From: a virus
Lineage: Duplodnaviria; Heunggongvirae; Uroviricota; Caudoviricetes
Reading direction: 5' to 3' (one strand)
Virus record (IMG/VR): IMGVR_UViG_3300048924_000203
Location: 86,232-108,881 of that record
Length of the DNA: 22,650 nucleotides
Shown here: positions 1 to 19,759 of the stretch, piece after piece
Layout: each line of letters begins with the position of its first letter
How positions within the stretch are numbered: position 1 is the first letter of the stretch
Program-made: the position numbers and the translations under genes
Notes under the pieces: model-generated
What the model was told of the DNA's origin: nothing
The model's input: only the letters and a program-made list of their open reading frames with translations
The model's database searches: none

Positions 1-3
1 GTC

Positions 4-453: not shown

Positions 454-470
454 CTGTTTGACAGGTTGAT

Positions 471-490
471 GCAGGCCAGAAGCGGTCTGC
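471..490 (+). terminator. Possible hairpin after the lipoprotein gene
   Basis: GCAGGCC-agaagc-GGTCTGC stem (one G-T pair); no clear U tract. Confidence 0.25.
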
Positions 491-508
491 ACGTGTGGTT
501 TGCATGAT
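487..508 (+). promoter_or_regulatory. Candidate promoter element, copy 1 (CTGCAC-N10-CATGAT)
   Basis: CTGCAC 487-492, CATGAT 503-508, then 7 nt to ATG 516; no Shine-Dalgarno. The -10 begins with C rather than T. Confidence 0.45.
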
Positions 509-515
509 GCCCGGT

Positions 516-992
516 ATGACTGACAGCGCCTTGGACACCACTGCACCCTCCGCCGCCGATCCTGTAGCGGCCCCGGCCCCGGTAGACGCCGCTACCACCC
601 TTCCCAGCGATGCCCCGACTGCAGAACAGCCGGCCGAGGATCCCGTGGAGGCTGCTAAGCGGAAGACCACCGAAAAGTGGCTGGCGGCCGAGACGGCATG
701 GAAGACCGCGTTCGACAAGGACTGGAAGTACGAACGCTACGAGTTCCACGGCGACCTCCTTGCCGTCCGCATCCCCAAGCAGGGCGCCCTGCTGGCCGTC
801 TCGATGGGCGGCGCCAAGTACGGGTCCACGGACGGCGGGCTCGGTGCCATGAACCAGTTCTGCAATCTGCACCTCGGCCCGGAATCCCGGCAGCGAGTGC
901 TGGACCGGATGATGAACCCCGACGAGACCGCCTACGGCGACTCGCCGATGGGTGATCTGTTCACGGCTCTGGGCAAGCTCTCCCCGGAGTAG
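516..992 (+). CDS. Tail assembly chaperone-like protein (158 aa; ORF track start 495, alternatives 504/507)
   Basis: Lies immediately before the tape measure gene; acidic Pro/Ala-rich N-terminus; 15/55 ungapped identities to the 16021 protein. Confidence 0.75.
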   Translation: MTDSALDTTAPSAADPVAAPAPVDAATTLPSDAPTAEQPAEDPVEAAKRKTTEKWLAAETAWKTAFDKDWKYERYEFHGDLLAVRIPKQGALLAVSMGGAKYGSTDGGLGAMNQFCNLHLGPESRQRVLDRMMNPDETAYGDSPMGDLFTALGKLSPE

Positions 993-999
993 CCGGAGC

Positions 1000-1021
1000 C
1001 TGCACGGGCGGTTCATAGCCT
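1000..1021 (+). promoter_or_regulatory. Candidate promoter element, copy 2 (CTGCAC-N10-TAGCCT)
   Basis: CTGCAC 1000-1005, TAGCCT 1016-1021, then 6 nt to GTG 1028; no usable Shine-Dalgarno. Confidence 0.55.
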
Positions 1022-1027
1022 CACGGA

Positions 1028-4000
1028 GTGACGACCGCCGGGGCCATCAGAGTCGGCGTCGATATCGACGCAACCGGTCTCGGCGCCCGGCTCCACAGCG
1101 CCATCAGCTCCCAGCTCGCGCCCGTCATGGCGCAGCTGCGGTCACAGACCCAGGCCACCGGCAACGACTTCGGCAACCTCGCGCGCCGCACTGAGCTGTC
1201 CGCAACGCGCCAGGTCGTCGCGCTCCGCCGAGTCGAGCAGCAACTGCACAGTGTGCGCGACGCCGCGCTGCAGGCCCATGCCGCGCTGAACAGCCTGCAC
1301 GGCCCCGGGAACAACAGCGTCGGGCCGCTTGGCAACGGCGGCAACCTCACCATCAACCGGAACACCTACAACTACGACTACCGGAACTACTCGGTAACGA
1401 ACAACACCGTCAACAACTCGACCACCACGATCCACAACAACAGCGGCGGCGGTGGGGGCGGCGGCGGTGGTGGTGGAGGTGGCGGCGGGAACAACGGCAA
1501 CAACCGCCGCGGACTCTTCGGCGGCGGAGGCGTTGGCGGATTCCTCACTTCGCCAGGCGGCCTCGGTGTCCTCGGCCTCGGCGCCAATGCGCTCCCGGCC
1601 GCCACCCTCGCCGTCACCAACCTGCTCGGCGCCGTCCAGCAGCTCGTGCAAACCGGCTTCCTGCTGCCCGCAGCGTTCGGCGCTGCCGCCTCCTCGATAG
1701 GCACCGCGGTCATCGGCTTCAAGGGCATGGGCGAGGCCATCACGGCCATCAACAAGGGCATGGAGGAAGGCGCCAGCAAGGCCGACCTCAAGAAGATGGC
1801 CGCCGCGCTCAAGGACATGAACGGCAACGCGAAAGAGGTTGCCCTCACCGTCGCCACCGACGTGCTGCCCGCGTTCAAGAAGATCCAGCAGGACGTCGTC
1901 CAGCAGAACATGTTCGACGGCATCGCCGCCAGCATCACCACGCTGAAGGACAAGGCGATGCCGACGTTCGAGCGTGGGCTCGGCGGCATCGCCACGGCGT
2001 GGAACGACACCCTCAAGAAGGGCATGTCGGCCCTCGGCGATGACCAGAACCTGAGCCTGCTGGACCGGCTCTTCGGGAACACCGCGGAAGGCCAGAAGCG
2101 GGCCAACGCCGCCATCGCCCCGATCACGCACGCCATGGCTCAGCTAGCAGCCACCGGCAGCGAGTTCCTGCCACGGCTCGGCGACGCCATCGCGAAGGTG
2201 ATGACGCGGTTCGACAACTTCATCTCGAAGAACGCCGCGAACGGCAACCTCTGGCGCTGGATCGACGAGGGCCTCAACGGGATGCGTGCCCTCGGCAACA
2301 GCATCCTGAACATCGGGAAGATCTTCGCCGGCATCACGAAGGCCGCTGGCGGACTCACTGGCAGCCTGTCCGGGGACGGCGGATTCCTCGGCGGTATGGA
2401 GAAGCTCACCGGGCAGTGGGCTGACTTCATCAACAGCGCCGAAGGCCAGGAGAAGCTCGGCAACTTCTTCAAGGATGCGAAAGAGCGTCTCGGAGAATGG
2501 ATTCCGATTCTCGGCAACGTCGCCAAGGTGATCGGCGATGTCTTCGTAGGCCTGCAGCAGTGGGGCGATGTGCTGCTGCCGATCCTGTCGAAGGTGACGA
2601 GCGCGCTGTCGTCGATGCCGGGTCTGATCACGGCCGCGGTCACGGCGTTCGCCGGGTTCAAGACGCTGGGATGGCTCGCAGGATTACTCGGTGTGGGCGG
2701 CGGCGCGGGCGCTGGCGCTGGTGCTGGCGCTGCAGGTGGGCTGCTCGGCCTCCTCAGAGGACCACTGGGTGTAGGACTGGCCGGTGCTGGTCTCTTCACT
2801 GGCGGTGTCATGTCGTCGGCAGGTCCGGATGGTCCGGGCTGGGGATCGAGCCTGTCGACGATCGGCGGCGGCGCGCTGTTGGGCGGAGCGATCGGATCCG
2901 TAATCCCGGTGGTCGGTACCGCACTGGGCGCCGCGATCGGCGCCGGCGCCGGCGCCATCACTGTCGGCGTCCAGGCGCTCGTCGCGTCGATGGGCAATGT
3001 CGACAAGCCGCTGAACGACCTCACCGACAGCATCAGGGCCGCTGCCGCTGAGAACTGGAAGAACATCAAGAACCAGACCGGTCTGCAGGATGACCCGACT
3101 CCTGGCGTGAATCCTGGCCAGTCGTTCACCGGGCCGCGTCCGGTCGATGCGTTCGTGGTGACCGATCCCAACACGGGTCTTCCGGTTCCGATTGACCCCA
3201 ACAAGCCGAACGACCTCGGACGGTTGGGCCTGGGAGTCATCGACAACCCGCTGTCACGAACGGGTATCCCTGGGTGGGATTCGGGTTTCCCTGTCGACAA
3301 GGACGGGCGGCCCCTTGTCCGCACCGACAACACGGGACGGCCCCAGCCGAACGGCGGCCAAGACTTCACTGGCGGATTCGCGCCTGTCCCGACACCGTCG
3401 AACCCGTGGCCCGTGGCGGTCGTCAACGACCCGATGTCCGGCATCAACACTCCCGGATTGCCCGGGAACACGCTGGCGCCGAAGGACCTGGGCTCGCTGC
3501 TCGGCGGCGAAGCTCCGCCGACGCTGACCCCGAATCCAGCTGGCCCGGGACCGGCGTATCAGGCGACCCCGGCGACACCACCGCTGGCGCAGGGTCCGGG
3601 GTTGCCGAACAACTGGCCAGGTGGGGGAGGACCGCAGGCGCCGCTGCCTCCGGTCAAGGCCGACACCACGGCCGCGCAGGGCGATATCGACAAGCTCGCC
3701 ACGTCGATTCAGGGGCTCCCCAAGGGCGAGGTGGCGATCAAGTCTGACGACATCCCCAGGGTTAAGACGGACCTCGACAAGCTGAACACGCAGATCACGG
3801 ACGTCTCGAAGAACCAGATCATCGTCAAGGCCAACGATGACCAGGCCAAGACGGTGCTCGACAACCTGATCCAGTCGTATCAGGGCCGGTCGATCACGCT
3901 GAACGTCAACGCCGGTGGTGCCCCGGGCGTCCCCGCGGCACCAGGGCACGCCAACGGCGGAATCGTTCGTCGTGGATTCGACCAGGGTGGCTGGTACAGC

Positions 4001-7000
4001 GACGAGTGGCGGCGACGTCACGGGCTCGCCGGCGGAAACTTCAACCCCGGCGTGGCCATCGACACGTCTGGCACGATCGCTACAAATCAGCTGGTCGGCG
4101 GACTGATCGGCGATATGGGCGCCCCAGCGATCGACTACAACGACTACCTGGGCCTGGTCCAGGACAGCTACGGGCCGAACCCGTCGCAGTGGCGGATCAA
4201 CCAACCACACGGGGTACTACCCGGCTACTCGCCTGGCGTGGACAACCTGATGGTGCCGATGAGCGGCGGCGAAGGCGTCATCATCCCCGAGGCCATGAGG
4301 GCTCTGGGGCCGGACTGGTTGTACCGGCTGAACAGCCGCTTCCGCCCGGGTATCAGCCGATCTGGCTACGCGACCGGTGGCGTGGTCGGCGCCGACGGTG
4401 TACTCGGCGCACCCGACGACAGTGTGATCGGGCTGCTGACCCAGATCCGTGACTCCATCCAGGGCAAGGGCGGCGGCGCTTTGGCGACGACCGCGGACAA
4501 CACCACGACAATGGCGCAGGCGTTGGGCCCGAAGGCGAAGCCGTTCGGCGGGGACATCGGGAAGGGCGCGCTGGCCGGCGCCATCAAGGCACTCGGCGGG
4601 GACCCGAACCAGATGGACTGGGGAGGCTTCAACGGCGACGGCCAGCTCCTTGTCCCGAAGGGCATGACCGCTGGTGCTGGCGGCCAGCTGCTCGGCGGAG
4701 GCGGCAACCTGCCCATGCTGGCGCAGGTGCTGTCAGCGTTCGCCCGCTCCGGCAACGTCGGCGACCTCACCGGCTCCGGTCTGAACGTCAACAGCCCGGT
4801 CGTCACGGCGATCACGTCGGCCCGCAACAAGAAGACGGGCTTGGGCGACGACGCAATCGCCGGACTGGTACAGCAGGTGCTCACCGGTGGCGGCTACACC
4901 GGCGTGCTGGACTCGACGAACACCCCGCTGGTGAAGTCGTTGACACGGTTCCAACAGCAGCAGCTCACCGGCAAGGGTGGCGCGGTCGCCATGCCCGCAG
5001 GCGGGTTCGACGCTGCGCTGCTGTCTCAGGTACGGCCCGGCCAGTACTCCCAGACCGGCGCCGCCGACCTCACGAAGGGCCTCGCCGACTGCTCGTCCTC
5101 GGTTGAGGACCTCGTCAACCTCATGGACGGGATGCCCACCGGCGGCCGGGAGATGTCGACGGGCAACGCCTCCCAGTGGCTCACCAGCCGCGGCTTCGTG
5201 CCAACTGACGGTGTCGTTCCCGGCGCGATGAACGTCGCCTTCAACAGCGGCCATATGCAGGCCACCCTGCCCGACGGGACGCCGTTCAACTGGGGATCGG
5301 ACGCCGCGGCGGCACGGGGCGGCGTCGGCGGCAGCGGCGCCTTCGACCCAGCCTTGAACCAGCGGTTCTACCGGCCTGTCACCGGGATGCCGCTCGGTGC
5401 CGGACTCAGCGCTGGCATGGGAGCCAGCCCGCTGGGCTACTCCGGTGGTGGCCCGGTCCCGGTGTATATCGTCGACGGCCCGGGCGCCGGCGGGTTCGGG
5501 CAGCAGCTCGGCGGCCAACTGCTCGGCGACGCGCTCTCCGCGGCCGCACCGGCGGTCTCGGATGCTGCGGGCTCGATCATCACCGGCATCGACCAGGGCA
5601 CCCAGCTCGCACGCGACAGCACGAAGGACCGCCCTGCCGTGCGGACCGGCACGCTGATGAAGGAAGGCAACCCGCTCTCCGTCGCGGCGCTTGCCGGGTA
5701 CACGGTGCCGGACTTCACCCGCCAAGGCTGGAACGGGCAGGTGATGACCAACAGCGGTCCGGGCTTCAACGCCGGCGGGCAGATGATGTCCGACACCGCG
5801 TCGCTGATCATGCGAACCTTCACCGACACTCAGGCCGCGGCCGACGCCCGCCAGCAGCAGATGCTGTCCGTCCTGGACCAGATCAAGACGCAGCTGTCGG
5901 AGTCGGTGCTGAAGCCGATCATCCAATCGGCGGTCCAGTCGGCGATGGCGGCAGCCGGGCAGGCCGCACAGCAGGGCACCTCCGGCGGTGGGGGAGCGAT
6001 CCCCGGCCTCGCTGACGGCGGCGCGATCTGGGGCGGCACCCCGGGCGTCGACTCGGTGCCTCTGATGGGCATGCCCGGCGAGCACATGCTGACCACGAGG
6101 GATGTGTCGGCGATGGGCGGCCAGCGCGGCGTGTACGCCTTCCGGCAGGCGCTGCACCGCAACGGCGGGCTGCGGGGCTTCGCCGGTGGCGGCGGCATCG
6201 GCAACGACACTGTCGGCGCCGACTTCTTCGGTGTCTCTCAGGTGCCGGTCATCGGCGACATCATCAACCTGATCATGAAGATCCTGCTCAAGGTCATCGG
6301 CGTCGAGATCCAGGTGCGGGACACGATGAACCGGATGTCGGATGACTTCCGCCAGTTCCGCGGCGACTTCAAGGCATTCGACGCCAGCGGCCGGTTGATG
6401 AACGACACCAGCGGCCTGGTCGACCGGTCCGGGTCCAGCGAGGAAACCGTTGTGGCGGAGCGGGTCCGCATCTTCAAGCAGGTGCTCGAAGGTTTGGTCA
6501 AGTTCATCATTCAGAAGATCGTCATCCCCATCACGCAGGCGATCGCGTCGTCGCTGCTGCAGGCCGGCGCATCGGCGGCGGGCGGCGCGGCCGCCGGCGG
6601 CATCAACACGGTCGCCCCGGGAGCCGGTGGCATCGCGGGAAGCCTGATCACCAGCCTGATTTCGTCGGGCGGGCAGGCAGGCATCAACATCGGCGGCGAG
6701 ATCGCACAGATGATCGCCGGCGCCGCGACGGGACCGATCGTCGGCCTGCTGACAGACGGGTTCATGGGCATCTTCGGCAAGCTGCTGAACCCGATCCTGA
6801 CCGGCGGCATCGGCGGCCTGCTCAGCGCGTTCTTCCCGTTCCTTGCGTTCGATGACGGCGGCATGGCCAACGGCGTGGGCCTGTTGCCGAAGGCCACCGT
6901 CGAGCCGGAGCGGGTGCTGTCACCCCGGCAGACGAGCCTGTTCGAGGAGATGGTGCGCGCGAACTTCGGCGCCAGCGCCGCCAGCAGCAAGTCGGTCAGC

Positions 7001-7078
7001 GTCGGCAAGATCGTCATGCAGGGGACACAGGCCACTCCGGAGGCTGTGCGCCAAAGCATTCTGGACCTTCTGGAATGA
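1028..7078 (+). CDS. Tape measure protein (2016 aa)
   Basis: Longest ORF, Ala/Gly-rich, located between chaperone and minor tail genes; repeated G-[FYHL]-A-x-G-G motifs; DCSS...GH peptidase-like segment; C-terminal PERVLSPRQT motif typical of actinophage TMPs. Confidence 0.95.
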   Translation: MTTAGAIRVGVDIDATGLGARLHSAISSQLAPVMAQLRSQTQATGNDFGNLARRTELSATRQVVALRRVEQQLHSVRDAALQAHAALNSLHGPGNNSVGPLGNGGNLTINRNTYNYDYRNYSVTNNTVNNSTTTIHNNSGGGGGGGGGGGGGGGNNGNNRRGLFGGGGVGGFLTSPGGLGVLGLGANALPAATLAVTNLLGAVQQLVQTGFLLPAAFGAAASSIGTAVIGFKGMGEAITAINKGMEEGASKADLKKMAAALKDMNGNAKEVALTVATDVLPAFKKIQQDVVQQNMFDGIAASITTLKDKAMPTFERGLGGIATAWNDTLKKGMSALGDDQNLSLLDRLFGNTAEGQKRANAAIAPITHAMAQLAATGSEFLPRLGDAIAKVMTRFDNFISKNAANGNLWRWIDEGLNGMRALGNSILNIGKIFAGITKAAGGLTGSLSGDGGFLGGMEKLTGQWADFINSAEGQEKLGNFFKDAKERLGEWIPILGNVAKVIGDVFVGLQQWGDVLLPILSKVTSALSSMPGLITAAVTAFAGFKTLGWLAGLLGVGGGAGAGAGAGAAGGLLGLLRGPLGVGLAGAGLFTGGVMSSAGPDGPGWGSSLSTIGGGALLGGAIGSVIPVVGTALGAAIGAGAGAITVGVQALVASMGNVDKPLNDLTDSIRAAAAENWKNIKNQTGLQDDPTPGVNPGQSFTGPRPVDAFVVTDPNTGLPVPIDPNKPNDLGRLGLGVIDNPLSRTGIPGWDSGFPVDKDGRPLVRTDNTGRPQPNGGQDFTGGFAPVPTPSNPWPVAVVNDPMSGINTPGLPGNTLAPKDLGSLLGGEAPPTLTPNPAGPGPAYQATPATPPLAQGPGLPNNWPGGGGPQAPLPPVKADTTAAQGDIDKLATSIQGLPKGEVAIKSDDIPRVKTDLDKLNTQITDVSKNQIIVKANDDQAKTVLDNLIQSYQGRSITLNVNAGGAPGVPAAPGHANGGIVRRGFDQGGWYSDEWRRRHGLAGGNFNPGVAIDTSGTIATNQLVGGLIGDMGAPAIDYNDYLGLVQDSYGPNPSQWRINQPHGVLPGYSPGVDNLMVPMSGGEGVIIPEAMRALGPDWLYRLNSRFRPGISRSGYATGGVVGADGVLGAPDDSVIGLLTQIRDSIQGKGGGALATTADNTTTMAQALGPKAKPFGGDIGKGALAGAIKALGGDPNQMDWGGFNGDGQLLVPKGMTAGAGGQLLGGGGNLPMLAQVLSAFARSGNVGDLTGSGLNVNSPVVTAITSARNKKTGLGDDAIAGLVQQVLTGGGYTGVLDSTNTPLVKSLTRFQQQQLTGKGGAVAMPAGGFDAALLSQVRPGQYSQTGAADLTKGLADCSSSVEDLVNLMDGMPTGGREMSTGNASQWLTSRGFVPTDGVVPGAMNVAFNSGHMQATLPDGTPFNWGSDAAAARGGVGGSGAFDPALNQRFYRPVTGMPLGAGLSAGMGASPLGYSGGGPVPVYIVDGPGAGGFGQQLGGQLLGDALSAAAPAVSDAAGSIITGIDQGTQLARDSTKDRPAVRTGTLMKEGNPLSVAALAGYTVPDFTRQGWNGQVMTNSGPGFNAGGQMMSDTASLIMRTFTDTQAAADARQQQMLSVLDQIKTQLSESVLKPIIQSAVQSAMAAAGQAAQQGTSGGGGAIPGLADGGAIWGGTPGVDSVPLMGMPGEHMLTTRDVSAMGGQRGVYAFRQALHRNGGLRGFAGGGGIGNDTVGADFFGVSQVPVIGDIINLIMKILLKVIGVEIQVRDTMNRMSDDFRQFRGDFKAFDASGRLMNDTSGLVDRSGSSEETVVAERVRIFKQVLEGLVKFIIQKIVIPITQAIASSLLQAGASAAGGAAAGGINTVAPGAGGIAGSLITSLISSGGQAGINIGGEIAQMIAGAATGPIVGLLTDGFMGIFGKLLNPILTGGIGGLLSAFFPFLAFDDGGMANGVGLLPKATVEPERVLSPRQTSLFEEMVRANFGASAASSKSVSVGKIVMQGTQATPEAVRQSILDLLE

Positions 7079-7094
7079 AAGGGGGCTCGACACA

Positions 7095-9796: not shown

Positions 9797-10284
9797 GCGG
9801 CAGCCACGTCGGCCGGCGACCCCGCACGGAGGCACAGTGGGCGCGGGACCAGCAGCAGCAGATCAAGGAACTCCAGAAACGGGACACGTTGCGTCTGGGG
9901 GAGTGGGTGCTGTCTGAGCGTGACGGCGAGATCGTCGCTACCAAGCCCGGCCGCAAACCGGTGGTGCTGACCAAGGCGCTGGACGAGGCAGACACCAGCG
10001 GTCTGCGGCGTGTTCAGCGGATCATCACCCTGTCGGGCGTAACGGGCGGCAACCTCGGACTGATCTACCGCGGCGACCCACTTACCGTGTCGTGGAACGC
10101 CTCGCAAGCAACGCTGCTGAGCGCGTTCCTCGTGCTCCGGACCTCCTACACGGCGTTGGATTTCAACGTCACCGGCCCCAATGGCGGACCCTGGATTGTC
10201 ACCCACCCGGGCGGCACACTCGATGCGGACCTGACTGGGCTGACCGGTCCTTCGCCGGCCGTCGACATCACCGTCCCGTCCTAG
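9793..10284 (+). CDS. Minor tail protein, 163 aa, with a C-terminal beta-rich accessory module
   Basis: GTGA overlap; N-terminal coiled segment (ARDQQQQIKELQKR); C-terminal TLSGVTGG...WNAS...VTGPNGGPW...DLTGLTG module. Confidence 0.75.
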   Translation: MSGSHVGRRPRTEAQWARDQQQQIKELQKRDTLRLGEWVLSERDGEIVATKPGRKPVVLTKALDEADTSGLRRVQRIITLSGVTGGNLGLIYRGDPLTVSWNASQATLLSAFLVLRTSYTALDFNVTGPNGGPWIVTHPGGTLDADLTGLTGPSPAVDITVPS

Positions 10285-10285
10285 T

Positions 10286-10933
10286 GTGACCGCCGTGGCG
10301 AGGGACTGGGTAGAGCCGAACGTCTGCACAGACGAGAACCTTGCCGTGTCGGTCGACGGCCTGCTGAAGCTCGCGCCGTGGTCGGTGCCGCGCAATGTCG
10401 TTGATGTGATGGCGAAGTCGACCGGCGACGGCAAGGTGACGCCGTACACCGCGCTGCCAGGGAAGTTGCTGATCGACCAGCAGGTGAACTGGATCAACGC
10501 CTCACCGCTCGACGCCATGGTGTTGATCCGGGTCACGCGATCGACCCGCTACTGGCAGACGTCGACGCCGAACGCGATCCAGCTGCGTGACCGGTGGACC
10601 CGTGACGTAGACCGTCAACCCGACGTGCCGACCGTGACTGGGCCCCACAACTCTGAGTGCGGTAGCGCGATCGACGTCGGCACGAACAGCGTTGCCGAGC
10701 CGAAACCTGGTCAGCACTGGCTGTGGCAGGGCGCCGGCACCAGCGACGAGTGGTACCCGTTTCCGATCAGGCCTGGTGAGAACCTGCGGCTTTGGTACCG
10801 CTGCTACCTGTGGACGCCGCCGCCGTGGTCGGACAACGCGAACAAGAACTCGCCGCGGCACCAGGCGTACGCCCGATGGACGCGTATTCAGATGATCGCG
10901 TTCCCGACGCAGGGAAAGCTGGTGTCTGGCTGA
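10286..10933 (+). CDS. Minor tail protein, paralogue A (215 aa)
   Basis: Starts 1 nt after the previous stop; shares motif order with the next two genes. Confidence 0.75.
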   Translation: MTAVARDWVEPNVCTDENLAVSVDGLLKLAPWSVPRNVVDVMAKSTGDGKVTPYTALPGKLLIDQQVNWINASPLDAMVLIRVTRSTRYWQTSTPNAIQLRDRWTRDVDRQPDVPTVTGPHNSECGSAIDVGTNSVAEPKPGQHWLWQGAGTSDEWYPFPIRPGENLRLWYRCYLWTPPPWSDNANKNSPRHQAYARWTRIQMIAFPTQGKLVSG

Positions 10934-11532
10934 TGGCGATGAAAGTCTGCACATCCGAGCTGATGATCTCCGACGTCAACGGCGTCGGCATGGCCCGCGC
11001 CTACTTCCCTCAGATCGTGAAAGAGGCCTTCCTCACCTCAGGCAAGGACGGGGAGATCAAGCGATCGCCGGACCCGGTCACGATGATCGACGGTGACCTG
11101 ACGTTCTTCAACAACAACGACGCTGACCTGCAGATGTGGGTGATGGTGCATCGCGCACCGCGCAGCATCGTCAGTACGAGCCCGGTGACCGTGATCATCC
11201 ACGACGCCTGGTCCTTCGACGTCGGCACTAACCCACAGGCGGAGTACCCGTCGGTGTTTCAGGACTCGTTCGGCGGCAAGCTGCAGCTCGACAAAGCCAG
11301 CGTGTCGGGGGAGGACCTCAAGTTCGGGCGGTTCTTCCTCAACTTCGACGACTCCCAGGCGTGGGAGCCCATCGGCATCGTGAAGTCCCAGCAGGCCCTG
11401 CACTTCCGCTACCTCTGCGCTGTCCAGACTCCCGGCGTGTGGACCGAGCCGACCGAGAAAGCGCCCCGCTACGAAGCGAAGGCGAACTGGTGCCGGCTGC
11501 AAGCGTTCGCTGTCCCGGTCGGAGGTGCTTGA
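10933..11532 (+). CDS. Minor tail protein, paralogue B (199 aa)
   Basis: TGATG 1-nt overlap with the previous stop gives start 10933 rather than track start 10792; paralogous motifs. Confidence 0.75.
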   Translation: MAMKVCTSELMISDVNGVGMARAYFPQIVKEAFLTSGKDGEIKRSPDPVTMIDGDLTFFNNNDADLQMWVMVHRAPRSIVSTSPVTVIIHDAWSFDVGTNPQAEYPSVFQDSFGGKLQLDKASVSGEDLKFGRFFLNFDDSQAWEPIGIVKSQQALHFRYLCAVQTPGVWTEPTEKAPRYEAKANWCRLQAFAVPVGGA

Positions 11533-11534
11533 GC

Positions 11535-12152
11535 GTGACCTGCGTTGACCCGAACCACTTCTACGTCCTTAACGGTGCGATCGTGCCGCAGCCATGGATG
11601 CAGATGCGGCAGGTCGACTCGAAGACCGTCGTGGCCAAGTCCGGCACGTACGGCCATTCCGGCGGCGCGACGAAGAACGACCTGCTGCAGACGGTGACCG
11701 CGAAGTTCGTGAACGACACTCCAGTGCCGCAGTGGGTGTACGGGCTCGTGACTCGCGGCGGCAGCAAGGTCACGCTGCAGGCCCGGTCCCGCGCCGGTAT
11801 CAGCCTGCTGACCGGCCAGCTGCTCGGCGAAGGCGCGATCCCGATGGTCGAGGCCAGCCTGCTGGGCTGCGGCCTCGACATCGGCCGGGGTGGCTTCCTG
11901 ACCGCCGGCACCGAGTACGCGATCACCGAGGTCCGGCAGAACACCAGCACCATCCCGCTGTGCCCCGAGCAGACCGGCTGGAAGCGCGTCGACCCCAACG
12001 CCACGCTGTACGCCCGGGCCGACACCCGGTTCGTGTCCACCTACTGGGAGGGCACTGACCCGAACAACGGCAACGGCTCCGCGGACTCCGAAACCACCTA
12101 CGTGGCCGGTGACCTGCGCATCGACCTGTACGCCATCCCGATATTCGAGTGA
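11535..12152 (+). CDS. Minor tail protein, paralogue C (205 aa)
   Basis: SD GGAGG 11521-11525, 9 nt before GTG 11535; paralogous motifs. Confidence 0.75.
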   Translation: MTCVDPNHFYVLNGAIVPQPWMQMRQVDSKTVVAKSGTYGHSGGATKNDLLQTVTAKFVNDTPVPQWVYGLVTRGGSKVTLQARSRAGISLLTGQLLGEGAIPMVEASLLGCGLDIGRGGFLTAGTEYAITEVRQNTSTIPLCPEQTGWKRVDPNATLYARADTRFVSTYWEGTDPNNGNGSADSETTYVAGDLRIDLYAIPIFE

Positions 12153-12160
12153 CCTGGGGT

Positions 12161-12182
12161 TAGCACCCCCGACGTCTACTTT
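12161..12182 (+). promoter_or_regulatory. Candidate promoter element, copy 3 (TAGCAC-N10-TACTTT)
   Basis: GCAC 12163-12166, TACTTT 12177-12182, then 8 nt to ATG 12191; no Shine-Dalgarno. Confidence 0.45.
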
Positions 12183-12190
12183 TCGGGGCT

Positions 12191-12604
12191 ATGGCGGACC
12201 TTGTCATTGGTTACAACCCCTCGCAGCCGATCGGCCAACGGCTGTCGGAGGAGGTACGCGCCGAGATCAACGTCATCGCGCCGTCCACGGTCAACAACGG
12301 CGACATCACCGACGCGAAGCTCGCCGACAACGCAGTGACGACCCGATCGATCAAGCCTGGCGCCGTGACCAGCGAGAAGATCGCTAACGGCGGCGTCCAG
12401 GCCATCAACATCGGCGACGGCCAAGTGACGGCCGGGAAGCTCGCCCCAGGAGCCGTCACACCCGACGTCGTGGCACCGGGTGTGGTCACCGCAGTCGACG
12501 CCGCTGGCAACGCGATCACCGTCAAGATCGCCCACGTCACCGCCGCCGAATACGCGGCCCTGACGAACCCTGACCCGAACACCGACTACTTCATCAGCTC
12601 CTAA
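12191..12604 (+). CDS. Short tail fibre stalk protein (137 aa)
   Basis: Six 10-residue VTxxK(L/I)AxG(A)-type repeats; C-terminal VTAAEYAALTNPDPNTDYFI motif typical of phage fibre proteins. Confidence 0.8.
   Translation: MADLVIGYNPSQPIGQRLSEEVRAEINVIAPSTVNNGDITDAKLADNAVTTRSIKPGAVTSEKIANGGVQAINIGDGQVTAGKLAPGAVTPDVVAPGVVTAVDAAGNAITVKIAHVTAAEYAALTNPDPNTDYFISS
12305..12484 (+). repeat. Six tandem 10-aa fibre repeats
   Basis: ITDAKLADNA / VTTRSIKPGA / VTSEKIANGG / VQAINIGDGQ / VTAGKLAPGA / VTPDVVAPGV. Confidence 0.8.
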
Positions 12605-13983
12605 TGCCGCAGATCATCCGTGGCGCGGGCAGCACGATCACCGCGATCAAGCACGGCAACACCGACATCAATGAGATCCGGCGTGGTTCGACGCTGATCT
12701 GGTCGAAGGCCGCGCTGCGCATCGACTTCCGGGTCCTGGACGATCAGGTCGGTCTCGGATCCAGCTGGACTGACTACGGCCCTGCGGTGTCCCCGTACTT
12801 GGCGTCGGTCGACGGCGGGGTATGTCGAATCAACCTGCCCGACAACGTCACCAACATCTCGGCGCAGCGATCGCAGATGCGGTACAACGCCACCACAACC
12901 ACCACGGCCGACGGCTACCTCGAAGTCGGTGTCGGTTCCTGGGGGCATTGGGATCCGGCGTTCCGGACCATCGTCTACGACCACATGTCGAACTCGTCGT
13001 TTGACGACGGCATCGGCATCGGCTTCTGGGGTCAGGCACTGCGCATTGTGCGCCGCGTCGCCGGTACTGAGACCACGATGGCCACCGGTGGCGGCTTCCA
13101 GACCGGCGACATCATTCGCATGGTCCACCTGAACAACGGCAAGCTGCACCAGCTCTACCGCAACGGGCGCCTGTCCTGCTGGTGGGATGACTCAGCCGGT
13201 ACAGCGAACGTCGACATTAACCACCGCTCGGTCGGCATCAGCACGTACGGCCGCAAAGACAACTTCCTTGTGCCGCGCTGCTACTCCACCGGCATCTCCT
13301 ACATCGAAGCCGGCGGCGGGGACCGCCGCATCCTGCCGATGGCGACGTCGGTCGCCGACACGTGGAACAACCGGCACATCGTCATGTCGTTCGACGACTA
13401 CGTTCCGGTGGCCGGGGACTTCATCCTGGTGTCGGCCTGCTACCGGGACGTCCCCAACTTCGCCACCACCAGCCCACCGGCAGGCTGGGTAGAGCTGACG
13501 AGCGTCAAATCCTCAGTGGGAGTGCAGTACTGCATTCATCACGTCGTTACGCAGGCAGAAGCTGACGCTGCACAGACGGCGTGGACGCTCCGGAACTACT
13601 GGAACAGCGCCCACTACACCGGCATCGTCGCGACCGTGTTCCGCGGCGTGAAGACGTCTGCGCCTATCGACGCCTTCGCCACCGGCTTCAACTCCGCCAA
13701 CAGCTCCCCGCACGTCCTGCCAGCTCTGCCGACCGTGTCGAACCGATCGCTCGTCGTCGGCATGCCGTGCGCCGCGTACGCGCAGCTCTATCCCGGCACC
13801 CCGCCAAACGGATGGCAGACGCTGGTCAACGCCCGAAAAGCGTCCGCACAGCCGCGAATGATGCTGCAGCGCACCGCCCTTACCCAGTCAGGTGTGCCGG
13901 TTCCGGCGGCGAACGTCACCCCCGGCGAACCCAGTCGCTACACCGCGATCACCGTCGCGCTGGCCGAAGCACCGTCGAGCTAG
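12604..13983 (+). CDS. Minor tail / putative receptor-binding protein (459 aa)
   Basis: TAATG coupling; N-terminal IKHGNTDINEIRRGSTLIW fibre-partner motif; two aromatic-rich beta domains (lectin-like by appearance). Confidence 0.75.
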   Translation: MPQIIRGAGSTITAIKHGNTDINEIRRGSTLIWSKAALRIDFRVLDDQVGLGSSWTDYGPAVSPYLASVDGGVCRINLPDNVTNISAQRSQMRYNATTTTTADGYLEVGVGSWGHWDPAFRTIVYDHMSNSSFDDGIGIGFWGQALRIVRRVAGTETTMATGGGFQTGDIIRMVHLNNGKLHQLYRNGRLSCWWDDSAGTANVDINHRSVGISTYGRKDNFLVPRCYSTGISYIEAGGGDRRILPMATSVADTWNNRHIVMSFDDYVPVAGDFILVSACYRDVPNFATTSPPAGWVELTSVKSSVGVQYCIHHVVTQAEADAAQTAWTLRNYWNSAHYTGIVATVFRGVKTSAPIDAFATGFNSANSSPHVLPALPTVSNRSLVVGMPCAAYAQLYPGTPPNGWQTLVNARKASAQPRMMLQRTALTQSGVPVPAANVTPGEPSRYTAITVALAEAPSS

Positions 13984-13994
13984 GAGCATCCGAG

Positions 13995-15341
13995 ATGACG
14001 AAGAAGCTGATCTCGATCAACGATGAGCAGCCACCCGGCGCGCAGCTGCCGATCGTCGTGCGTTCTGAGCTCGACGAGGTGTGGCGGCAAGCACGCGACG
14101 ACCTGCAGGTGCACAAGGCCGGCGCCGAAACCATCACCGGTGCGAAGACCCTGACGGCGAAGCTGACAGCCCGTGACATCGAGGTGTCGCCGCTGACCGT
14201 CGGCGGCAACGCGGTGCTGAAGATGACCAACGGGTCGCAGTCGTGGGCATTCACAGTCAGCGCCGACGGGAAACTGTCGGTGCTGGATGTGACTGCCGGT
14301 TCGGCGCCGGTGGTGCTGGCCCCGGGTGCCGCGGCCTTGGCCCTGCAGGTGCTGGCGACCAAGCTGCTTGCCGGCGCCGACCTCGACCTGGGTGGACACA
14401 ACCTGTCCGGTGTCGGTAACGCCAACCTGCCGAACGGGCCGGTGTTCACTACCGGTGCTGGCGTGCTGCCGGTGGCGCTGTTGCCGGCATCGGCGATGAC
14501 GTTCCTCGGCATGTGGGACGCGTCGACGAACACGCCGACCGTGGCGCCTGGCGCCGGTATCTCGGGCCAGACGTACCGAGTTTCAGTGGCGGGAAACCGT
14601 GACATCGGCGAAGGCGTCACGGAGTTCCAGCCGGGCGACTCGATCATCTACGACGGGGCGGTGTGGCGGAAGCAGGACAACACCGAGCACGTCGCGTCCG
14701 TCGCCGGTCTGATCGGCGCCATCACCCCGGCCGCCCTGCGCTCGGCACTCTCGCTGGTGGTGGGCACCGACGTCCAGGCGCAGAACGCCAACCTGCAGGC
14801 GCTCGCCGGCGTGACGTCGGCGAGCGACACCCTCGCCTACTTCACCGGCAGCGGAGCCGCCGCAGCCACGACGCTGACCAGCTTCATCCGCACCCTGTTG
14901 GACGACGTCGACGCGGTCGCTGCGCGGAACACGTTGGGGCTCGGTGCGGTGGCTACGAAGGCCGGCAACGTCGCGGTACCGGTGTGGATAGAGATTCACG
15001 CCGGGTACGGCGTCCGCTCGGTCGGCTACATGGACAACGCCATGGGTTTCACGGTGCCCGCCAACTTCATCCTCGGCCAGGTCATCTACCGCGGCACCAC
15101 CGCCGACGCCAGCGGGTCCACCACGGTCGAGCTGCGCCAGAACGGTGTCCAAATCGCCAGCAGCGTCAAGGCCATCACCGCGGCCAATCAGTGGGCGCAG
15201 AGCACCAACACCACAGCAACCATCGGCAACACCGTCAATGCGGGCGACATCCTGCGCCCCTACATCAGCAGTCTGGGCACCACACCCGGCAACGGGTTCG
15301 GGTGCACGCTCGTCGGTACCGTCAGCGTGGCGGTGACGTAA
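13995..15341 (+). CDS. Long tail fibre protein (448 aa)
   Basis: SD AGGAG before ATG 13995; recognisable fibre modules VHKAGAETITGAKT, WDASTNTP...YDGAVWRK and YFTG...TLLDD...AARNTLGLG. Confidence 0.8.
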   Translation: MTKKLISINDEQPPGAQLPIVVRSELDEVWRQARDDLQVHKAGAETITGAKTLTAKLTARDIEVSPLTVGGNAVLKMTNGSQSWAFTVSADGKLSVLDVTAGSAPVVLAPGAAALALQVLATKLLAGADLDLGGHNLSGVGNANLPNGPVFTTGAGVLPVALLPASAMTFLGMWDASTNTPTVAPGAGISGQTYRVSVAGNRDIGEGVTEFQPGDSIIYDGAVWRKQDNTEHVASVAGLIGAITPAALRSALSLVVGTDVQAQNANLQALAGVTSASDTLAYFTGSGAAAATTLTSFIRTLLDDVDAVAARNTLGLGAVATKAGNVAVPVWIEIHAGYGVRSVGYMDNAMGFTVPANFILGQVIYRGTTADASGSTTVELRQNGVQIASSVKAITAANQWAQSTNTTATIGNTVNAGDILRPYISSLGTTPGNGFGCTLVGTVSVAVT

Positions 15342-16009
15342 TGCCTACCTGCCTGATCGGTATTCCGAAGACCAGCGCGGCGCCGCTGTTCCTCGCATCG
15401 GGGTCTGGGTTCACCACCACGGGCGGCTCGAACATGAGCCCGCAGTGCACGGTGAACGTGGCCCAAGCCGGCGGCTGCATCGTCGCGCTAACCTGCCGAC
15501 ACACCAACTGGAACAACACGCTGACCGCCAAGACCGTGGTCAGCGACCAAGGGTCGGTATTCACCGAAATTCCGGGGTCCGACACGGTGCGCGGTGTCAG
15601 CGGTCAGCGTCTCGGTCACGTGGTGCTGTTCTACTGCCAGAATCCGGCGATAGGACTGCACACGCTCACCGGCAACGTACAAGCCGCCCAGTCGTTCACC
15701 CGCGCGAACATCCTGGGGGCGTTCTACGGCAACGTGATCGGGTACCAGAACTTGGCGACGCAGAGCACCACAGGCAGCCAGGCTGTGGCGCTGTCGGTGA
15801 CATCGACAGCGGGCAACATCCCGTTCATCGGCGTGACAACAGGAGCCGCCATGACCGGATGGAACTGGACCAACCGCGAGACCCAGGACGGCGATCTAAG
15901 CCTGATCGGTGACCGCGGCATCACCGCCGTCACGGGAGCGGTCAACTTCAGCACGAGCAGCACTGGACACAACGTCGCCGCAGCCGGTGTCGATCTCATC
16001 GCAGCATAG
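15341..16009 (+). CDS. Minor tail / fibre-tip partner protein (222 aa)
   Basis: TAATG overlap gives start 15341 (track start 14663 is a shadow of the fibre gene); Thr/Gly/Ala-rich beta protein. Confidence 0.7.
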   Translation: MPTCLIGIPKTSAAPLFLASGSGFTTTGGSNMSPQCTVNVAQAGGCIVALTCRHTNWNNTLTAKTVVSDQGSVFTEIPGSDTVRGVSGQRLGHVVLFYCQNPAIGLHTLTGNVQAAQSFTRANILGAFYGNVIGYQNLATQSTTGSQAVALSVTSTAGNIPFIGVTTGAAMTGWNWTNRETQDGDLSLIGDRGITAVTGAVNFSTSSTGHNVAAAGVDLIAA

Positions 16010-16020
16010 GAGGCCTCGGC

Positions 16021-16383
16021 ATGTATGACCCGCCCGCCGGCTATCAAGACTTCCTCGCCGACGCCGAAAACAACGACCGTGGCGACGGCCCGATGTACCC
16101 GCTCCACGTGGAGGGTGTGGGCACGATCCAGGCGCGCAAACCCATCCCCGGCAGTGCCGCGCCGTTGGGCGCGGCGGGCCGATCGAAGATCCCCGACCGG
16201 GAGAAGCTCGGCTATCTGAACCTGTTCGTGCGCAACCACATCGGCGCCGACCAGTACGAGCAGCTGCTGGAGCGGATGATGACCGATGACGCCCCGGCTG
16301 ACACGATGCCCCGGATCGTCGAGGCCATCACGACAAGGGGCACGGCCCGCCCTACCAAGCGGTCATCACACTCTGTGTGCTGA
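16021..16383 (+). CDS. Tail assembly chaperone-like protein, G-type (120 aa)
   Basis: Strong SD AGGAGG; paralogous to 516-992; ends GTARPT followed by a Ser-rich tail, as recalled for actinophage chaperones. Confidence 0.7.
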   Translation: MYDPPAGYQDFLADAENNDRGDGPMYPLHVEGVGTIQARKPIPGSAAPLGAAGRSKIPDREKLGYLNLFVRNHIGADQYEQLLERMMTDDAPADTMPRIVEAITTRGTARPTKRSSHSVC

Positions 16384-16679
16384 CCGCTCACCACTGGCGA
16401 CCGCTGCGGTCGAAGCTGCTGCTGGCCGGGATCGGTGACCCGATGGGCCTGCCGTCCATGCACTCTCTTTTGGACCTGACCGAGTCGGCGCTGACTGAGT
16501 CGATGTCCGCGGACCCTGAGGAAGGCAGCAAGAAGGTCTCGGAGTTCATCGACCAGCTGTACGCCCCGCCGGTTGAACCCGCCAAGGCCAAAGCCGGCTA
16601 CAAGGCTCCGCCGTCGTGGTGGACCGAAGGCAATTCGGACGACGAGTTTGACGCCGCGCAGCGCGCCGCTCCGCGCTGA
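16377..16679 (+). CDS. Tail assembly chaperone T-type ORF (probable -1 frameshift extension of 16021; frame open from 16302)
   Basis: Overlaps the upstream gene in the -1 frame, has no SD, and its GTG is buried in a 13-bp hairpin. Confidence 0.65.
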   Translation: MLTAHHWRPLRSKLLLAGIGDPMGLPSMHSLLDLTESALTESMSADPEEGSKKVSEFIDQLYAPPVEPAKAKAGYKAPPSWWTEGNSDDEFDAAQRAAPR

Positions 16680-16685
16680 TATCCG

Positions 16686-16707
16686 CTGCACCCAAGGCTC
16701 ATACCGT
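16686..16707 (+). promoter_or_regulatory. Candidate promoter element, copy 4 (CTGCAC-N10-TACCGT)
   Basis: CTGCAC 16686-16691, TACCGT 16702-16707, then 8 nt to ATG 16716; no Shine-Dalgarno. Confidence 0.55.
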
Positions 16708-16715
16708 CGCGAACT

Positions 16716-16841
16716 ATGCGCCAGACGATAACCGCCATAGCCGCCGGGACGGTCCTCGGCCTGGTGCTGTTCGCAGGCATGGGACTGGTGTTCATGAAGT
16801 GGGGCGCCGACCCCGCCAAAGACCCGCTGGTGCCGTGGTGA
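16716..16841 (+). CDS. Small single-pass membrane protein (41 aa; below the ORF track cutoff)
   Basis: MRQTITAIAAGTVLGLVLFAGMGLVFMKWGADPAKDPLVPW; its stop overlaps the next GTG (GTGA). Confidence 0.7.
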   Translation: MRQTITAIAAGTVLGLVLFAGMGLVFMKWGADPAKDPLVPW

Positions 16842-19525: not shown

Positions 19526-19759
19526 ATGTTCACTCGTAAATGGTTCAAGGATGCCGCCGACCGCGTCGGATCCACCGCGCTGTTCGCGTTCCTAGGATAT
19601 CTGCTGTCGCTCGACCACTTCGACTTGTGGGCCGTCAACTGGAAGGCTGCCATCAACGCGACCGTCATCGCTGCCGTCGGCTCGCTGCTCAAGGCACTCG
19701 TTGTCGGTAAGGCCCCGATCGGAACGCCTGACTCTGCGACACCGGTCGATCTTCGATGA
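19526..19759 (+). CDS. Holin (r1t-like), 77 aa
   Basis: SD GAAAGG; MFTRKWFKDAADR N-terminus followed by two hydrophobic segments; located after the lysins. Confidence 0.8.
   Translation: MFTRKWFKDAADRVGSTALFAFLGYLLSLDHFDLWAVNWKAAINATVIAAVGSLLKALVVGKAPIGTPDSATPVDLR

What the first reader, a model, noticed from the sequence alone, without database searches (positions are those of the whole stretch)
487..16718. Recurring GCAC-N10-TANNNT element at every SD-less gap: candidate phage-specific leaderless late promoter
Seen: the morphogenesis region has four intergenic gaps of 35-62 nt and all four carry the same layout. CTGCAC gtgtggtttg CATGAT N7 ATG516; CTGCAC gggcggttca TAGCCT N6 GTG1028; TAGCAC ccccgacgtc TACTTT N8 ATG12191; CTGCAC ccaaggctca TACCGT N8 ATG16716. 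GCAC lies exactly 10 nt before the hexamer each time, and three copies also share GGYT in the spacer. None has an SD or a conserved -35, whereas gaps of 11-16 nt carry SD sequences. The -10-like hexamers before int, the secreted protein and ORF 20666 lack GCAC at this spacing. Established: TANNNT is the mycobacterial SigA -10, and leaderless mRNAs are common in mycobacteria. Inference: GCAC at about -26 to -23 is a site for a phage activator or alternative sigma that separately switches on the chaperone, TMP, fibre and lysis modules. At an assumed 68% GC, GCAC has about a 0.6% chance per fixed position, but I chose the hexamers by eye and copy 1 starts with C.
Basis: partly seen in the sequence, partly recalled or inferred. 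Interest (0 to 1): 0.85.

Follow-up and report, generated by a model that had tools for sequence, protein, structure and literature searches.

The report
Conserved late-gene promoter motif of phage
A short two-part DNA signal (TGCAC, ten bases, then TAnnnT) sits in front of almost every virion and lysis gene block of this 109-kb mycobacteriophage-like virus and of the large Cluster B group of mycobacteriophages. It is most likely their undescribed late promoter, which often starts the mRNA right at the start codon.

Summary
All four sites are exactly where stated, and the pattern extends well beyond them. The window is the right end of a complete 108.9-kb phage record. GCAC-N10-TANNNT occurs 8 times on its + strand, out of only 71 TANNNT hexamers. 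With two one-base variants that makes ten copies, all between 66.8 and 103 kb. They precede the portal, capsid, tail tube, adaptor, chaperone, tape measure, fibre and lysis genes.

A scan of every 4-mer at every spacer 0-40 placed GCAC at spacer 10 third of about 10,500 combinations (p 3.7e-7). The two above it, CACC at 9 and ACCC at 8, are the same box shifted by one and two bases.

Diverged relatives keep TGCAC(CC), the hexamer and the spacing while spacer and flanks change. The same motif stands at matching genes in Cluster B phages Cooper, Pipefish and Fang, in Gordonia phage NHagos and in M. abscessus prophiT48-1. It is absent from three more distant phages.

Two copies (capsid, tail tube) have 33- and 43-nt gaps before the start codon, the latter with a clear SD. 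So the element is a promoter, not a translation signal.

No sigma factor gene was found, and WhiB is not shared by all carriers. One DNA-binding protein family (phrog_928) co-occurs with the motif but may serve packaging instead. No RNA data exist, so transcription starts remain unproven. I found no published description.

The parts
487..508 (+). Late-promoter copy before the tail assembly chaperone gene: CTGCAC box 487-492, 10-nt spacer, -10-like CATGAT 503-508, then 7 nt to ATG516. Weakest copy, with C for T at hexamer position 1.
   Evidence: Orthologs in L002, L007 and L010 keep TGCAC-N..-GGTTTGCATGAT. L004/L018 has GCAC-N10-TACCGT-N8-ATG.
470..491 (+). Terminator-like hairpin (8-bp stem, then GGTTT) after the lipoprotein-like ORF 4-453. 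Its 3' arm overlaps the CTGCAC box of copy 1.
516..992 (+). Tail assembly chaperone gene (Phage_TAC_16). ATG516 is the start conserved in relatives.
1000..1021 (+). Late-promoter copy before the tape measure gene: CTGCAC 1000-1005, spacer GGGCGGTTCA, TAGCCT 1016-1021, then 6 nt to GTG1028.
   Evidence: 23.6 bits. It is 22-23 of 23 identical in four relatives whose four-fold sites are only 49-72% identical. TAGCCT-N6-GTG is also kept in Cooper, Fang and Pipefish.
1028..7078 (+). Tape measure protein gene (2016 aa).
12161..12182 (+). Late-promoter copy before the 137-aa tail fibre/tip gene: TAGCAC(CCC) 12161-12169, TACTTT 12177-12182, then 8 nt to ATG12191.
   Evidence: The ortholog in L018/L019 keeps TAGCACCCC, CGTCTACTTT and the spacing.
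12191..12604 (+). Tail fibre/tip protein gene (phrog_892, Phage_tail_C).
16686..16707 (+). Late-promoter copy heading the lysis cassette: CTGCAC(CC) 16686-16693, CATACCGT 16700-16707, then 8 nt to ATG16716.
   Evidence: 26.8 bits. The ortholog in L018/L019 keeps TGCACCC and CATACCGT, while the six spacer bases and the eight bases before ATG differ.
16716..16841 (+). 41-aa hydrophobic ORF, first gene of the lysis block. It is followed by a 97-aa ORF, LysA at 17137, LysB at 18706 and the holin at 19526.

Best explanation
The element is a late-gene promoter class of a phage lineage. The lineage comprises the Cluster B mycobacteriophages (Bclasvirinae), a few Gordonia and M. abscessus phages, and this 109-kb temperate phage.

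The consensus is T-G-C-A-C-(C-C), six variable bases, (T/C)(T)CA, then TAnnnT(C). The TAnnnT hexamer is the -10 element, most likely read by the host primary sigma factor (SigA type). There is no -35 element. Instead the TGCAC(CC) box, ending 10 bp upstream of the hexamer at roughly -27 to -21, is read by something specific.

This would keep the ten promoters, including the one heading the lysis cassette, silent in the lysogen.

Transcription would start 6-8 nt after the hexamer. At eight of the ten sites that position is the A or G of the start codon, giving leaderless mRNAs. At the capsid and tail-tube genes it would give leaders of roughly 26 and 36 nt, the tail-tube one with a clear SD.

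Shown here: the motif, its statistics, its placement and its conservation. Inferred: promoter activity, the start points and dependence on a phage factor.

The candidate factor is only a lead, at about 0.25. It is the phrog_928 protein, made of an HTH, a 57-residue helix and a zinc-ribbon-like end.
For: 1. Non-random occurrence. There are 8 exact copies on the + strand of the 108.9-kb genome and 1 on the - strand. All 8 are intergenic and lie in the 66.8-103 kb virion/lysis region. GCAC at spacer 10 ranks third among all 4-mers at all spacers (p 3.7e-7), behind its own shifted readings CACC at 9 and ACCC at 8. A PWM gives members 17-28 bits (copy 1: 10.2) and nothing else above 13.3 on either strand.

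2. Targets. The ten copies precede a 134-aa phrog_781 gene, portal, a 59-aa gene, major capsid, major tail, head-tail adaptor, chaperone, tape measure, fibre and the lysis block.

3. Geometry. The box-to-hexamer distance is fixed at 10. The hexamer-to-start distance is 6-8 nt at eight sites but 33 and 43 nt at capsid and tail tube, the latter with GAGGAG before the ATG. So the element is tied to a transcription start, not to a start codon.

4. Selection. In the most diverged relatives, copy 4 keeps TGCACCC and CATACCGT while spacer and flanks change. Copy 3 behaves likewise. Copy 2 is 22-23 of 23 identical against 49-72% identity at four-fold sites.

5. Independent lineages. The motif stands at matching genes in Cooper (portal, capsid, tail, adaptor; TCAC variant at lysin A; GCAC at spacer 10, p 2e-5), Pipefish (capsid, tail, fibre, lysin; p 5.5e-5), Fang (portal, capsid, tail), NHagos (4 forward, 1 reverse) and prophiT48-1 (6 forward, 0 reverse). 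It is absent, 0 forward, in Zipp, TP1604 and Scumberland.

6. Natural experiments. In relatives L002 and L004 a gene inserted after codon 8 of the adaptor gene is followed by a second GCAC-N10-TANNNT-N7/8-GTG. That second copy differs from the first everywhere except at the motif positions.

7. No competing signal. The sigma-70 -35/-10 scan found 0 hits in window 1-17200. No SD is present. No RNA fold is better than shuffles (z 0.34, 0.17, -1.16, -0.24). Rfam gave no family in the gaps.

8. Reader of the -10. No sigma-70 region 2 was found in any carrier genome. This fits a host sigma reading TANNNT.

9. Factor lead. phrog_928 is present in all 6 motif-carrying genomes and in none of the 3 without the motif.
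Against: - No transcript 5' ends are available.
- Copy 1 has CATGAT, and several Cluster B sites have one-base variants of the box (ACAC, TCAC, GCGC, GCAG). Some leaderless-layout sites lack the box altogether, so it is not obligatory.
- No known reader for a -25 element exists in mycobacterial RNA polymerase.
- The motif-carrying genomes are relatives that share a whole structural module. Co-occurrence with phrog_928 therefore has little independent weight.
- phrog_928 lies next to the large terminase. Its HTH, coiled coil and HNH-like zinc-ribbon end fit a packaging role equally well.
- Cluster B phages are generally regarded as lytic, so the argument that the promoters must be silent in a lysogen applies only to the temperate carriers.
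Confidence: 0.58

Rival explanations
1. These are ordinary host-only promoters. SigA holoenzyme, with RbpA and CarD, uses the TANNNT hexamers as it does at most mycobacterial promoters. The TGCAC box would be read by the host polymerase or by a conserved host factor (for example a WhiA-type protein, whose GACAC motif I recall from memory), with no phage protein involved.
For: TANNNT with a start 6-8 nt downstream and no -35 is the standard mycobacterial layout (established knowledge: Cortes 2013; Shell 2015, PMC4633059). No phage sigma was found. The motif works across phages of Mycobacterium and Gordonia hosts, as a conserved host factor would allow. The portal copies read ACAC, and GACAC in Pipefish.
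Against: Ten constitutive promoters, one of them heading holin and lysin genes, would be harmful in a lysogen of this temperate phage (inference). The box carries about 8-9 bits at a position where no sequence readout by mycobacterial polymerase is known. The motif is confined to the late region of the genome, whereas two other promoter-like repeat families serve the early and middle region.
Confidence: 0.22
2. The box is an operator of stoperator type. A phage repressor would bind TGCAC(CC) at many intergenic sites, in one orientation, to keep late genes off in the prophage, as Cluster A repressors do.
For: [quoted passage not shown] This resembles the L5 and Bxb1 stoperators as described in PMC3029335.
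Against: The box always keeps an exact 10-bp distance to a TANNNT hexamer, which a roadblock site does not need. It is restricted to the late region. It is conserved in Cluster B phages, which are generally regarded as lytic (the lifestyle is from my own knowledge).
Confidence: 0.05
3. The element acts in RNA. It would be a processing or ribosome-loading signal inside a long late transcript that lets SD-less internal genes be translated.
For: The four window copies lie in short gaps between co-oriented genes without SD.
Against: No fold is better than shuffled sequence and no shared structure exists. Rfam gave no match. Two copies lie 33-43 nt from start codons, one of which has its own clear SD. 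The conserved letters are those of a -10 hexamer (T1, A2, T6).
Confidence: 0.05

Closest known systems
Mycobacterial -10-only (SigA-type) promoters giving leaderless mRNAs (Cortes et al. 2013; Shell et al. 2015, PMC4633059; Nguyen et al. 2020, PMC7148126)
   Same: A TANNNT hexamer, no conserved -35, no SD, and a start codon 6-8 nt after the hexamer so that the mRNA would begin with AUG or GUG.
   Different: Host promoters of this kind have no conserved element at about -25. Here TGCAC(CC) at a fixed 10-bp distance carries as much information as the hexamer. The motif also serves two leadered genes.
Phage T4 middle promoters (sigma appropriation by AsiA and MotA)
   Same: A host-sigma -10 element (TAnnnT) is kept. 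The -35 element is replaced by a phage-specific box at a fixed short distance upstream of the -10 (the MotA box, about 12 bp away; from my own knowledge). There are many copies across one temporal class.
   Different: The box sequence differs and lies slightly closer (10 bp, centre about -25 rather than -30). MotA and AsiA homologs were not searched for. Hosts and phages are unrelated. This is a resemblance in how it would work, not family membership.
-35-less phage late promoters (T4 late TATAAATA with gp55/gp33; Thermus phage P23-45 extended -10 class)
   Same: Late virion genes are driven by promoters that dispense with -35 recognition.
   Different: Those classes rely on an extended or unusual -10 alone. 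Here a separate upstream box is conserved. No phage sigma was detected.
Cluster K start-associated sequences and Cluster A stoperators of mycobacteriophages (PMC3203893, PMC3029335)
   Same: Short asymmetric repeats in intergenic gaps, in one orientation, in many copies per genome.
   Different: Start-associated sequences contain the SD and sit 3-8 bp from the start codon. Stoperators are repressor sites spread over the whole genome. This motif has no SD, keeps its distance to a -10 hexamer rather than to the start codon, and is confined to late genes.
Late transcriptional activators of Gram-positive temperate phages (RinA, ArpU and Ltr families; PMC3152322)
   Same: A small phage DNA-binding protein, encoded next to the packaging genes, switches on virion and lysis genes. 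The phrog_928 gene lies in the same kind of place.
   Different: Those systems act at a single promoter upstream of terS. Here about ten promoters are spread through the late region. No sequence relation was shown.

Membership tests
Mycobacterial -10-only leaderless promoters | TANNNT hexamer | tested here: met
   Met in 3 of 4 window copies and 9 of 10 genome copies. Copy 1 has CATGAT, which keeps A2 and T6.
Mycobacterial -10-only leaderless promoters | Start codon (A or G) 6-8 nt after the hexamer, with no SD | tested here: met
   Spacing is 7, 6, 8 and 8 nt in the window, and 6-8 nt at 8 of 10 sites genome-wide. No SD is present.
Mycobacterial -10-only leaderless promoters | Primary transcript 5' end at the start codon | not testable with these tools
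   No RNA run was listed for this DNA.
T4-type sigma appropriation (middle promoters) | Host -10 element plus an activator box replacing the -35 at a fixed short distance | tested here: met
   The layout is GCAC-N10-TANNNT with no conservation at the -35 position. This is a test of layout only.
T4-type sigma appropriation (middle promoters) | MotA-like activator and AsiA-like sigma-region-4 binder encoded by the phage | not tested
   No search for MotA or AsiA families was run. WhiB, a known SigA region 4 binder, is present in this genome but absent from Cooper, Pipefish, Fang and NHagos.
Sigma-54 promoters (TGGCAC-N5-TTGCW) | GG at -24 and GC at -12 with 5-nt spacing | tested here: not met
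   The box is TGCAC with a single G. The downstream element is TANNNT at 10 nt. That Actinobacteria lack RpoN is from my own knowledge.
ECF sigma promoters (GGAAC-N16-17-CGT) | AAC-type -35 and CGT -10 separated by 16-17 nt | tested here: not met
   The distance from GCAC to the CGT inside the hexamer is 13 nt. CGT is present in only 6 of 10 copies, whereas T6 is invariant.
Cluster K start-associated sequences | Conserved 13-mer containing the SD, 3-8 bp before the start codon | tested here: not met
   The motif has no SD. Two copies lie 33 and 43 nt from the start codon.
Cluster A stoperators | Repressor-binding sites spread over the genome of a temperate phage, independent of promoter elements | tested here: not met
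   The copies are confined to the late region and locked to a -10 hexamer. They also occur in Cluster B phages. Binding could not be tested.
Canonical sigma-70 -35/-10 promoters | TTGACA-like hexamer 16-18 nt upstream of the -10 | tested here: not met
   The scan found 0 hits in window 1-17200. The alignment of ten copies shows no conservation at that position.

The most novel reading that the evidence does not exclude
An actinophage counterpart of sigma appropriation. A protein that travels with the Cluster B-type virion module binds the TGCAC(CC) box at about -25. It then recruits host SigA polymerase to -35-less promoters and fires about ten late transcription units at once, most of them leaderless. 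The candidate is phrog_928, made of an HTH, a long helix and a zinc-ribbon-like end. Its own gene sits behind a middle-class promoter next to the terminase gene. This would be a new type of late activator and the first defined late switch for about 500 sequenced mycobacteriophages.
Probability: 0.2. Interest if true: 0.8.

Novelty: new variant of a known kind. Interest (0 to 1): 0.62.

Why it matters
Late-gene control is poorly understood in mycobacteriophages. For Cluster B, one of the largest groups (about 500 genomes), I found no described late promoter.

If this motif is that promoter, four things follow:
- It gives a testable map of about ten late transcription units per genome.
- It explains how SD-less genes after 35-60 nt gaps are expressed, namely as leaderless mRNAs.
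- It corrects start-codon calls, for example the adaptor genes of Fang and prophiT48-1 and gp8 of Cooper.
- It points to an unknown reader of a -25 element in mycobacterial transcription.

It would also supply infection-dependent promoters for phage engineering and reporter phages. Every step can be tested in M. smegmatis with phages that are already in collections.

Tried and rejected
- RNA evidence: no RNA holder was listed for the window. The five holders listed are DNA runs of root metagenomes.
- Close relatives: a single-protein search of viral and genome contigs found none. Relatives came from the protein database instead.
- De novo motif search: my Gibbs sampler on 'non-coding' segments failed. 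My crude gene calls left coding sequence in the set, and it converged on codon periodicity. I replaced it with the all-4-mer, all-spacer scan.
- Frameshift idea: I considered that copy 1 lies inside a G-T frameshift product of ORF 1-453. This is rejected because the -1 frame has a TGA at 459-461.
- RNA structure and Rfam: nothing was found.
- Sigma-54 and ECF readings: rejected on spacing and invariant bases.
- WhiB as the common factor: rejected, because it is absent from four carrier genomes.
- Other shared genes as the common factor: the XRE-type HTH phrog_955 is missing from prophiT48-1, and DUF932 phrog_1221 is missing from prophiT48-1 and Fang.
- Fold searches with the phrog_928 model gave only weak, generic HTH matches. 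LiaR, DosR and GerE scored E 0.3-2 and KorB scored Z 6.3 over 52 residues. All other hits were to the long helix. No function can be read from them.
- Literature: six full-text searches and two papers read found no description of this motif. The library lacks most subscription journals, so this is not proof of absence.

Full report
WHAT THE WINDOW IS. The window is the last 22.65 kb of a single 108,881-bp virus record, rated complete. A 30-nt-plus direct repeat bounds it at genome position 86 and window 22524, the latter inside a tRNA-Leu gene. It is therefore a whole temperate phage genome with its integrase at the right end. It comes from root metagenomes and has no close relative among deposited phages. 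Independent gene calls and family searches identify:
- the tail assembly chaperone (516-992);
- the tape measure protein (1028-7078);
- minor tail proteins;
- a 137-aa fibre/tip protein (12191-12604);
- a second chaperone pair (16021-16679);
- a 41-aa membrane ORF (16716-16841) that opens the lysis block of LysA, LysB and holin.

THE OBSERVATION. The four gaps lack an SD, while the 11-16 nt gaps carry one. A pattern search of the window gave 3 exact GCAC-N10-TANNNT matches against 0.81 expected from dinucleotide shuffles, which looks weak. That null is too generous, because TANNNT itself is strongly depleted. There are only 71 on the + strand of the whole genome and 16 in the window. Given those hexamers, three with GCAC at one fixed offset has p of about 4e-4 (my arithmetic).

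EXTENSION TO THE WHOLE PHAGE. In the 108.9-kb genome the exact pattern occurs 8 times on the + strand and once on the - strand. All eight are intergenic and lie between 66.8 and 103 kb. GCAC at spacer 10 (8 observed, 0.63 expected, p 3.7e-7) and its shifted readings CACC at 9 and ACCC at 8 are the top three signals on the + strand. Nothing comparable appears on the - strand.

Adding copy 1 (CATGAT) and the portal copy (ACAC) gives ten sites. Their consensus is TGCAC(CC), six variable bases, (T/C)TCA, then TAnCGT-C, with no conservation where a -35 would lie. A weight matrix scores most members at 17-28 bits (copy 1: 10.2) and nothing else in either strand above 13.3.

The ten sites precede a 134-aa phrog_781 gene, portal, a 59-aa gene, major capsid, major tail, head-tail adaptor, chaperone, tape measure, fibre and the lysis block. 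At eight sites ATG or GTG follows the hexamer after 6-8 nt. At the capsid and tail-tube genes the start codon lies 33 and 43 nt after the hexamer, and the tail-tube start is preceded by GAGGAG. The fixed distance is thus box to hexamer, not motif to start codon. That is what a promoter predicts and what a translation signal does not.

CONSERVATION. Chaperone homologs at 57-77% identity led to related contigs.
- The chaperone-to-tape-measure gap keeps CTGCACGGGCGGTTCATAGCCT at 22-23 of 23 positions in four lineages. Four-fold degenerate sites in the flanking genes are only 49-72% identical in those lineages.
- In the most diverged lineage (L018/L019), copy 4 keeps TGCACCC and CATACCGT. The six spacer bases, the eight bases before the ATG and the upstream flank all differ. 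Copy 3 behaves the same way.
- Copy 1, the weak one here, is GCAC-N10-TACCGT-N8-ATG in that lineage.
- In relatives L002 and L004, a gene inserted after codon 8 of the adaptor gene is followed by a second GCAC-N10-TANNNT-N7/8-GTG in front of the displaced gene. In L002 the insert is an HNH endonuclease. The second copy matches the first only at the motif positions.

THE SAME MOTIF IN KNOWN PHAGES. The virion proteins are distantly related (35-55% identity) to those of Cluster B mycobacteriophages.
- In Cooper (B4) the unbiased scan again picks GCAC at spacer 10 (5 of 46 hexamers, p 2e-5). The sites precede portal (7 nt to ATG), capsid and tail tube (leadered) and adaptor (6 nt to GTG), with a TCAC variant before lysin A.
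- Pipefish (B3) has it before capsid, tail tube, fibre and lysin (p 5.5e-5; CACC at 9, p 1.2e-5).
- Fang (B1) has it before portal, capsid and tail tube.
- Gordonia phage NHagos has 4 forward and 1 reverse copies. M. abscessus prophiT48-1 has 6 forward and 0 reverse, including leaderless adaptor and tape-measure copies.
- Gordonia phage Zipp, Streptomyces phage TP1604 and Microbacterium phage Scumberland, which have more distant adaptor homologs, have none on the forward strand.
- Several Cluster B sites carry one-base variants (ACAC, TCAC, GCGC, GCAG) or only the hexamer, as expected of a promoter family with graded strengths.

WHAT READS IT. The invariant T1, A2 and T6 of the hexamer point to a sigma-70-family region 2, that is the host primary sigma. 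No sigma-70 region 2 is encoded by this phage or by five other carriers. No canonical -35/-10 promoter is present in window 1-17200. The box at about -27 to -21 has no known reader in mycobacterial polymerase (my knowledge).

This phage is temperate and one copy heads the holin-lysin block. Constitutive activity would therefore be harmful, so I infer dependence on a phage product made earlier.

WhiB is encoded here but is missing from Cooper, Pipefish, Fang and NHagos. Of the few non-structural genes shared with Cooper, three families were tested across the other genomes, and only phrog_928 is present in all six motif-carrying genomes and in none of the three without it. The XRE-type HTH phrog_955 and DUF932 fail this test.

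phrog_928 occurs in 524 phage records, with the same host spread as the B-type chaperone, which occurs in 508. Here its gene lies just after the large terminase gene, behind one of the phage's other promoter-like repeats. Its confident model (pLDDT 92.7) has three parts:
- an N-terminal helix-turn-helix bundle;
- a 57-residue helix;
- a beta-beta-alpha zinc-ribbon-like end.

Structural matches are weak and generic. This architecture, and a position next to the terminase, also fit a packaging protein. The co-occurrence is confounded by shared ancestry. I therefore treat phrog_928 as a lead only.

RIVALS. A host-only promoter reading cannot be excluded (about 0.22). A stoperator-like repressor site is unlikely, because the box is locked to a -10 hexamer, is confined to late genes, and occurs in Cluster B phages. 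An RNA-level signal is unlikely, because no fold beats shuffled sequence, no Rfam family matches, and two copies lie well upstream of their start codons.

CONTEXT AND NOVELTY. The same genome carries two other promoter-like repeat families in its early and middle region. Earlier notes of this scan had already described both, so the late motif completes a three-class picture. Six literature searches and two papers read gave no description of this motif. The closest known systems are mycobacterial leaderless -10-only promoters, which share the hexamer and start geometry, and T4 middle promoters, which pair a host -10 with a phage-specific upstream box. I rate it a new variant of a known kind. 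It is well supported by comparison, unproven by experiment, and directly testable in M. smegmatis.

Noticed in passing
Same genome, outside the window: hexamers at genome positions 4702, 23882, 42636, 48848, 53581 and 54957: Six copies of a roughly 70-nt repeat, gaaaTACATTGCA...GTTTCATCATAGGAT...gcaagcggaaa.gagtccgc. It looks like a canonical -35/-10 promoter with a conserved leader.
   Followed up: partly
Same genome, outside the window: hexamers at 20798, 35573, 40216, 53015, 54849 and 64320: A second promoter-like family, GTCGC(A/G)CCCCTTGCA directly abutting TANNNT, in the early and middle region. One copy precedes the phrog_928 gene with a leaderless layout (GTG at 53028).
   Followed up: partly
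L002:6695-7380 and L004:7214-7925: In two relatives a gene is inserted after codon 8 of the head-tail adaptor gene. In L002 it is a NUMOD4/HNH endonuclease and in L004 a 94-aa reverse-strand gene. This leaves an 8-codon stub. A fresh promoter-plus-start copy then precedes the displaced gene, which looks like homing-endonuclease traffic that carries its own late promoter.
   Followed up: partly
L024 (Fang) about 17070-17127; L022 (Cooper) about 5240-5288; L039 (prophiT48-1): Deposited start codons look wrong at three genes. Fang gp22 (adaptor) is annotated from a TTG. A GTG 6 nt after TAGCCT would add a conserved W-P-I-(N/D)-R N-terminus. Cooper gp8 and prophiT48-1 gp63 likewise have better leaderless starts.
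   Followed up: partly
window 16021-16679: A second Phage_TAC_16 chaperone (16021-16383) is followed by a DUF7240 ORF (16377 or 16443 to 16679). One PHROG profile (phrog_941, 233 positions) covers both. They are therefore probably a G/G-T pair joined by a programmed frameshift, 15 kb from the chaperone that precedes the tape measure gene.
   Followed up: partly
window 4-453 and 470-491: A lipoprotein-like ORF (signal peptide with an IGSGC lipobox, lower GC3, no family match) lies between the head-tail genes and the chaperone. It has its own TAAGCT-N8-ATG layout without the GCAC box and a terminator-like hairpin after it, so it looks like a moron.
   Followed up: partly
Whole genome, both strands: TANNNT is rare: 71 on the + strand and 95 on the - strand, against roughly 250 expected from the TA and T frequencies. 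Codon bias may explain this. Either way, shuffle-based nulls overstate chance for any motif that contains TANNNT.
   Followed up: partly
L022 (Cooper) 8412 and L023 (Pipefish) 9859: A GCAC-N10-TAAGTT match is conserved inside the MuF/protease fusion gene of both Cluster B phages. It could be an internal promoter or only a coding constraint.
   Followed up: no
L022, L023 and L024, upstream of the adaptor and lysin A genes (in Fang also the tape-measure gene): Cluster B phages share another element, acccgcc(t)tagtcgg..ttgtcaa, a few bases upstream of the GCAC box wherever the forward late genes resume after a reverse-strand block. It may be an operator for the neighbouring HTH genes.
   Followed up: no
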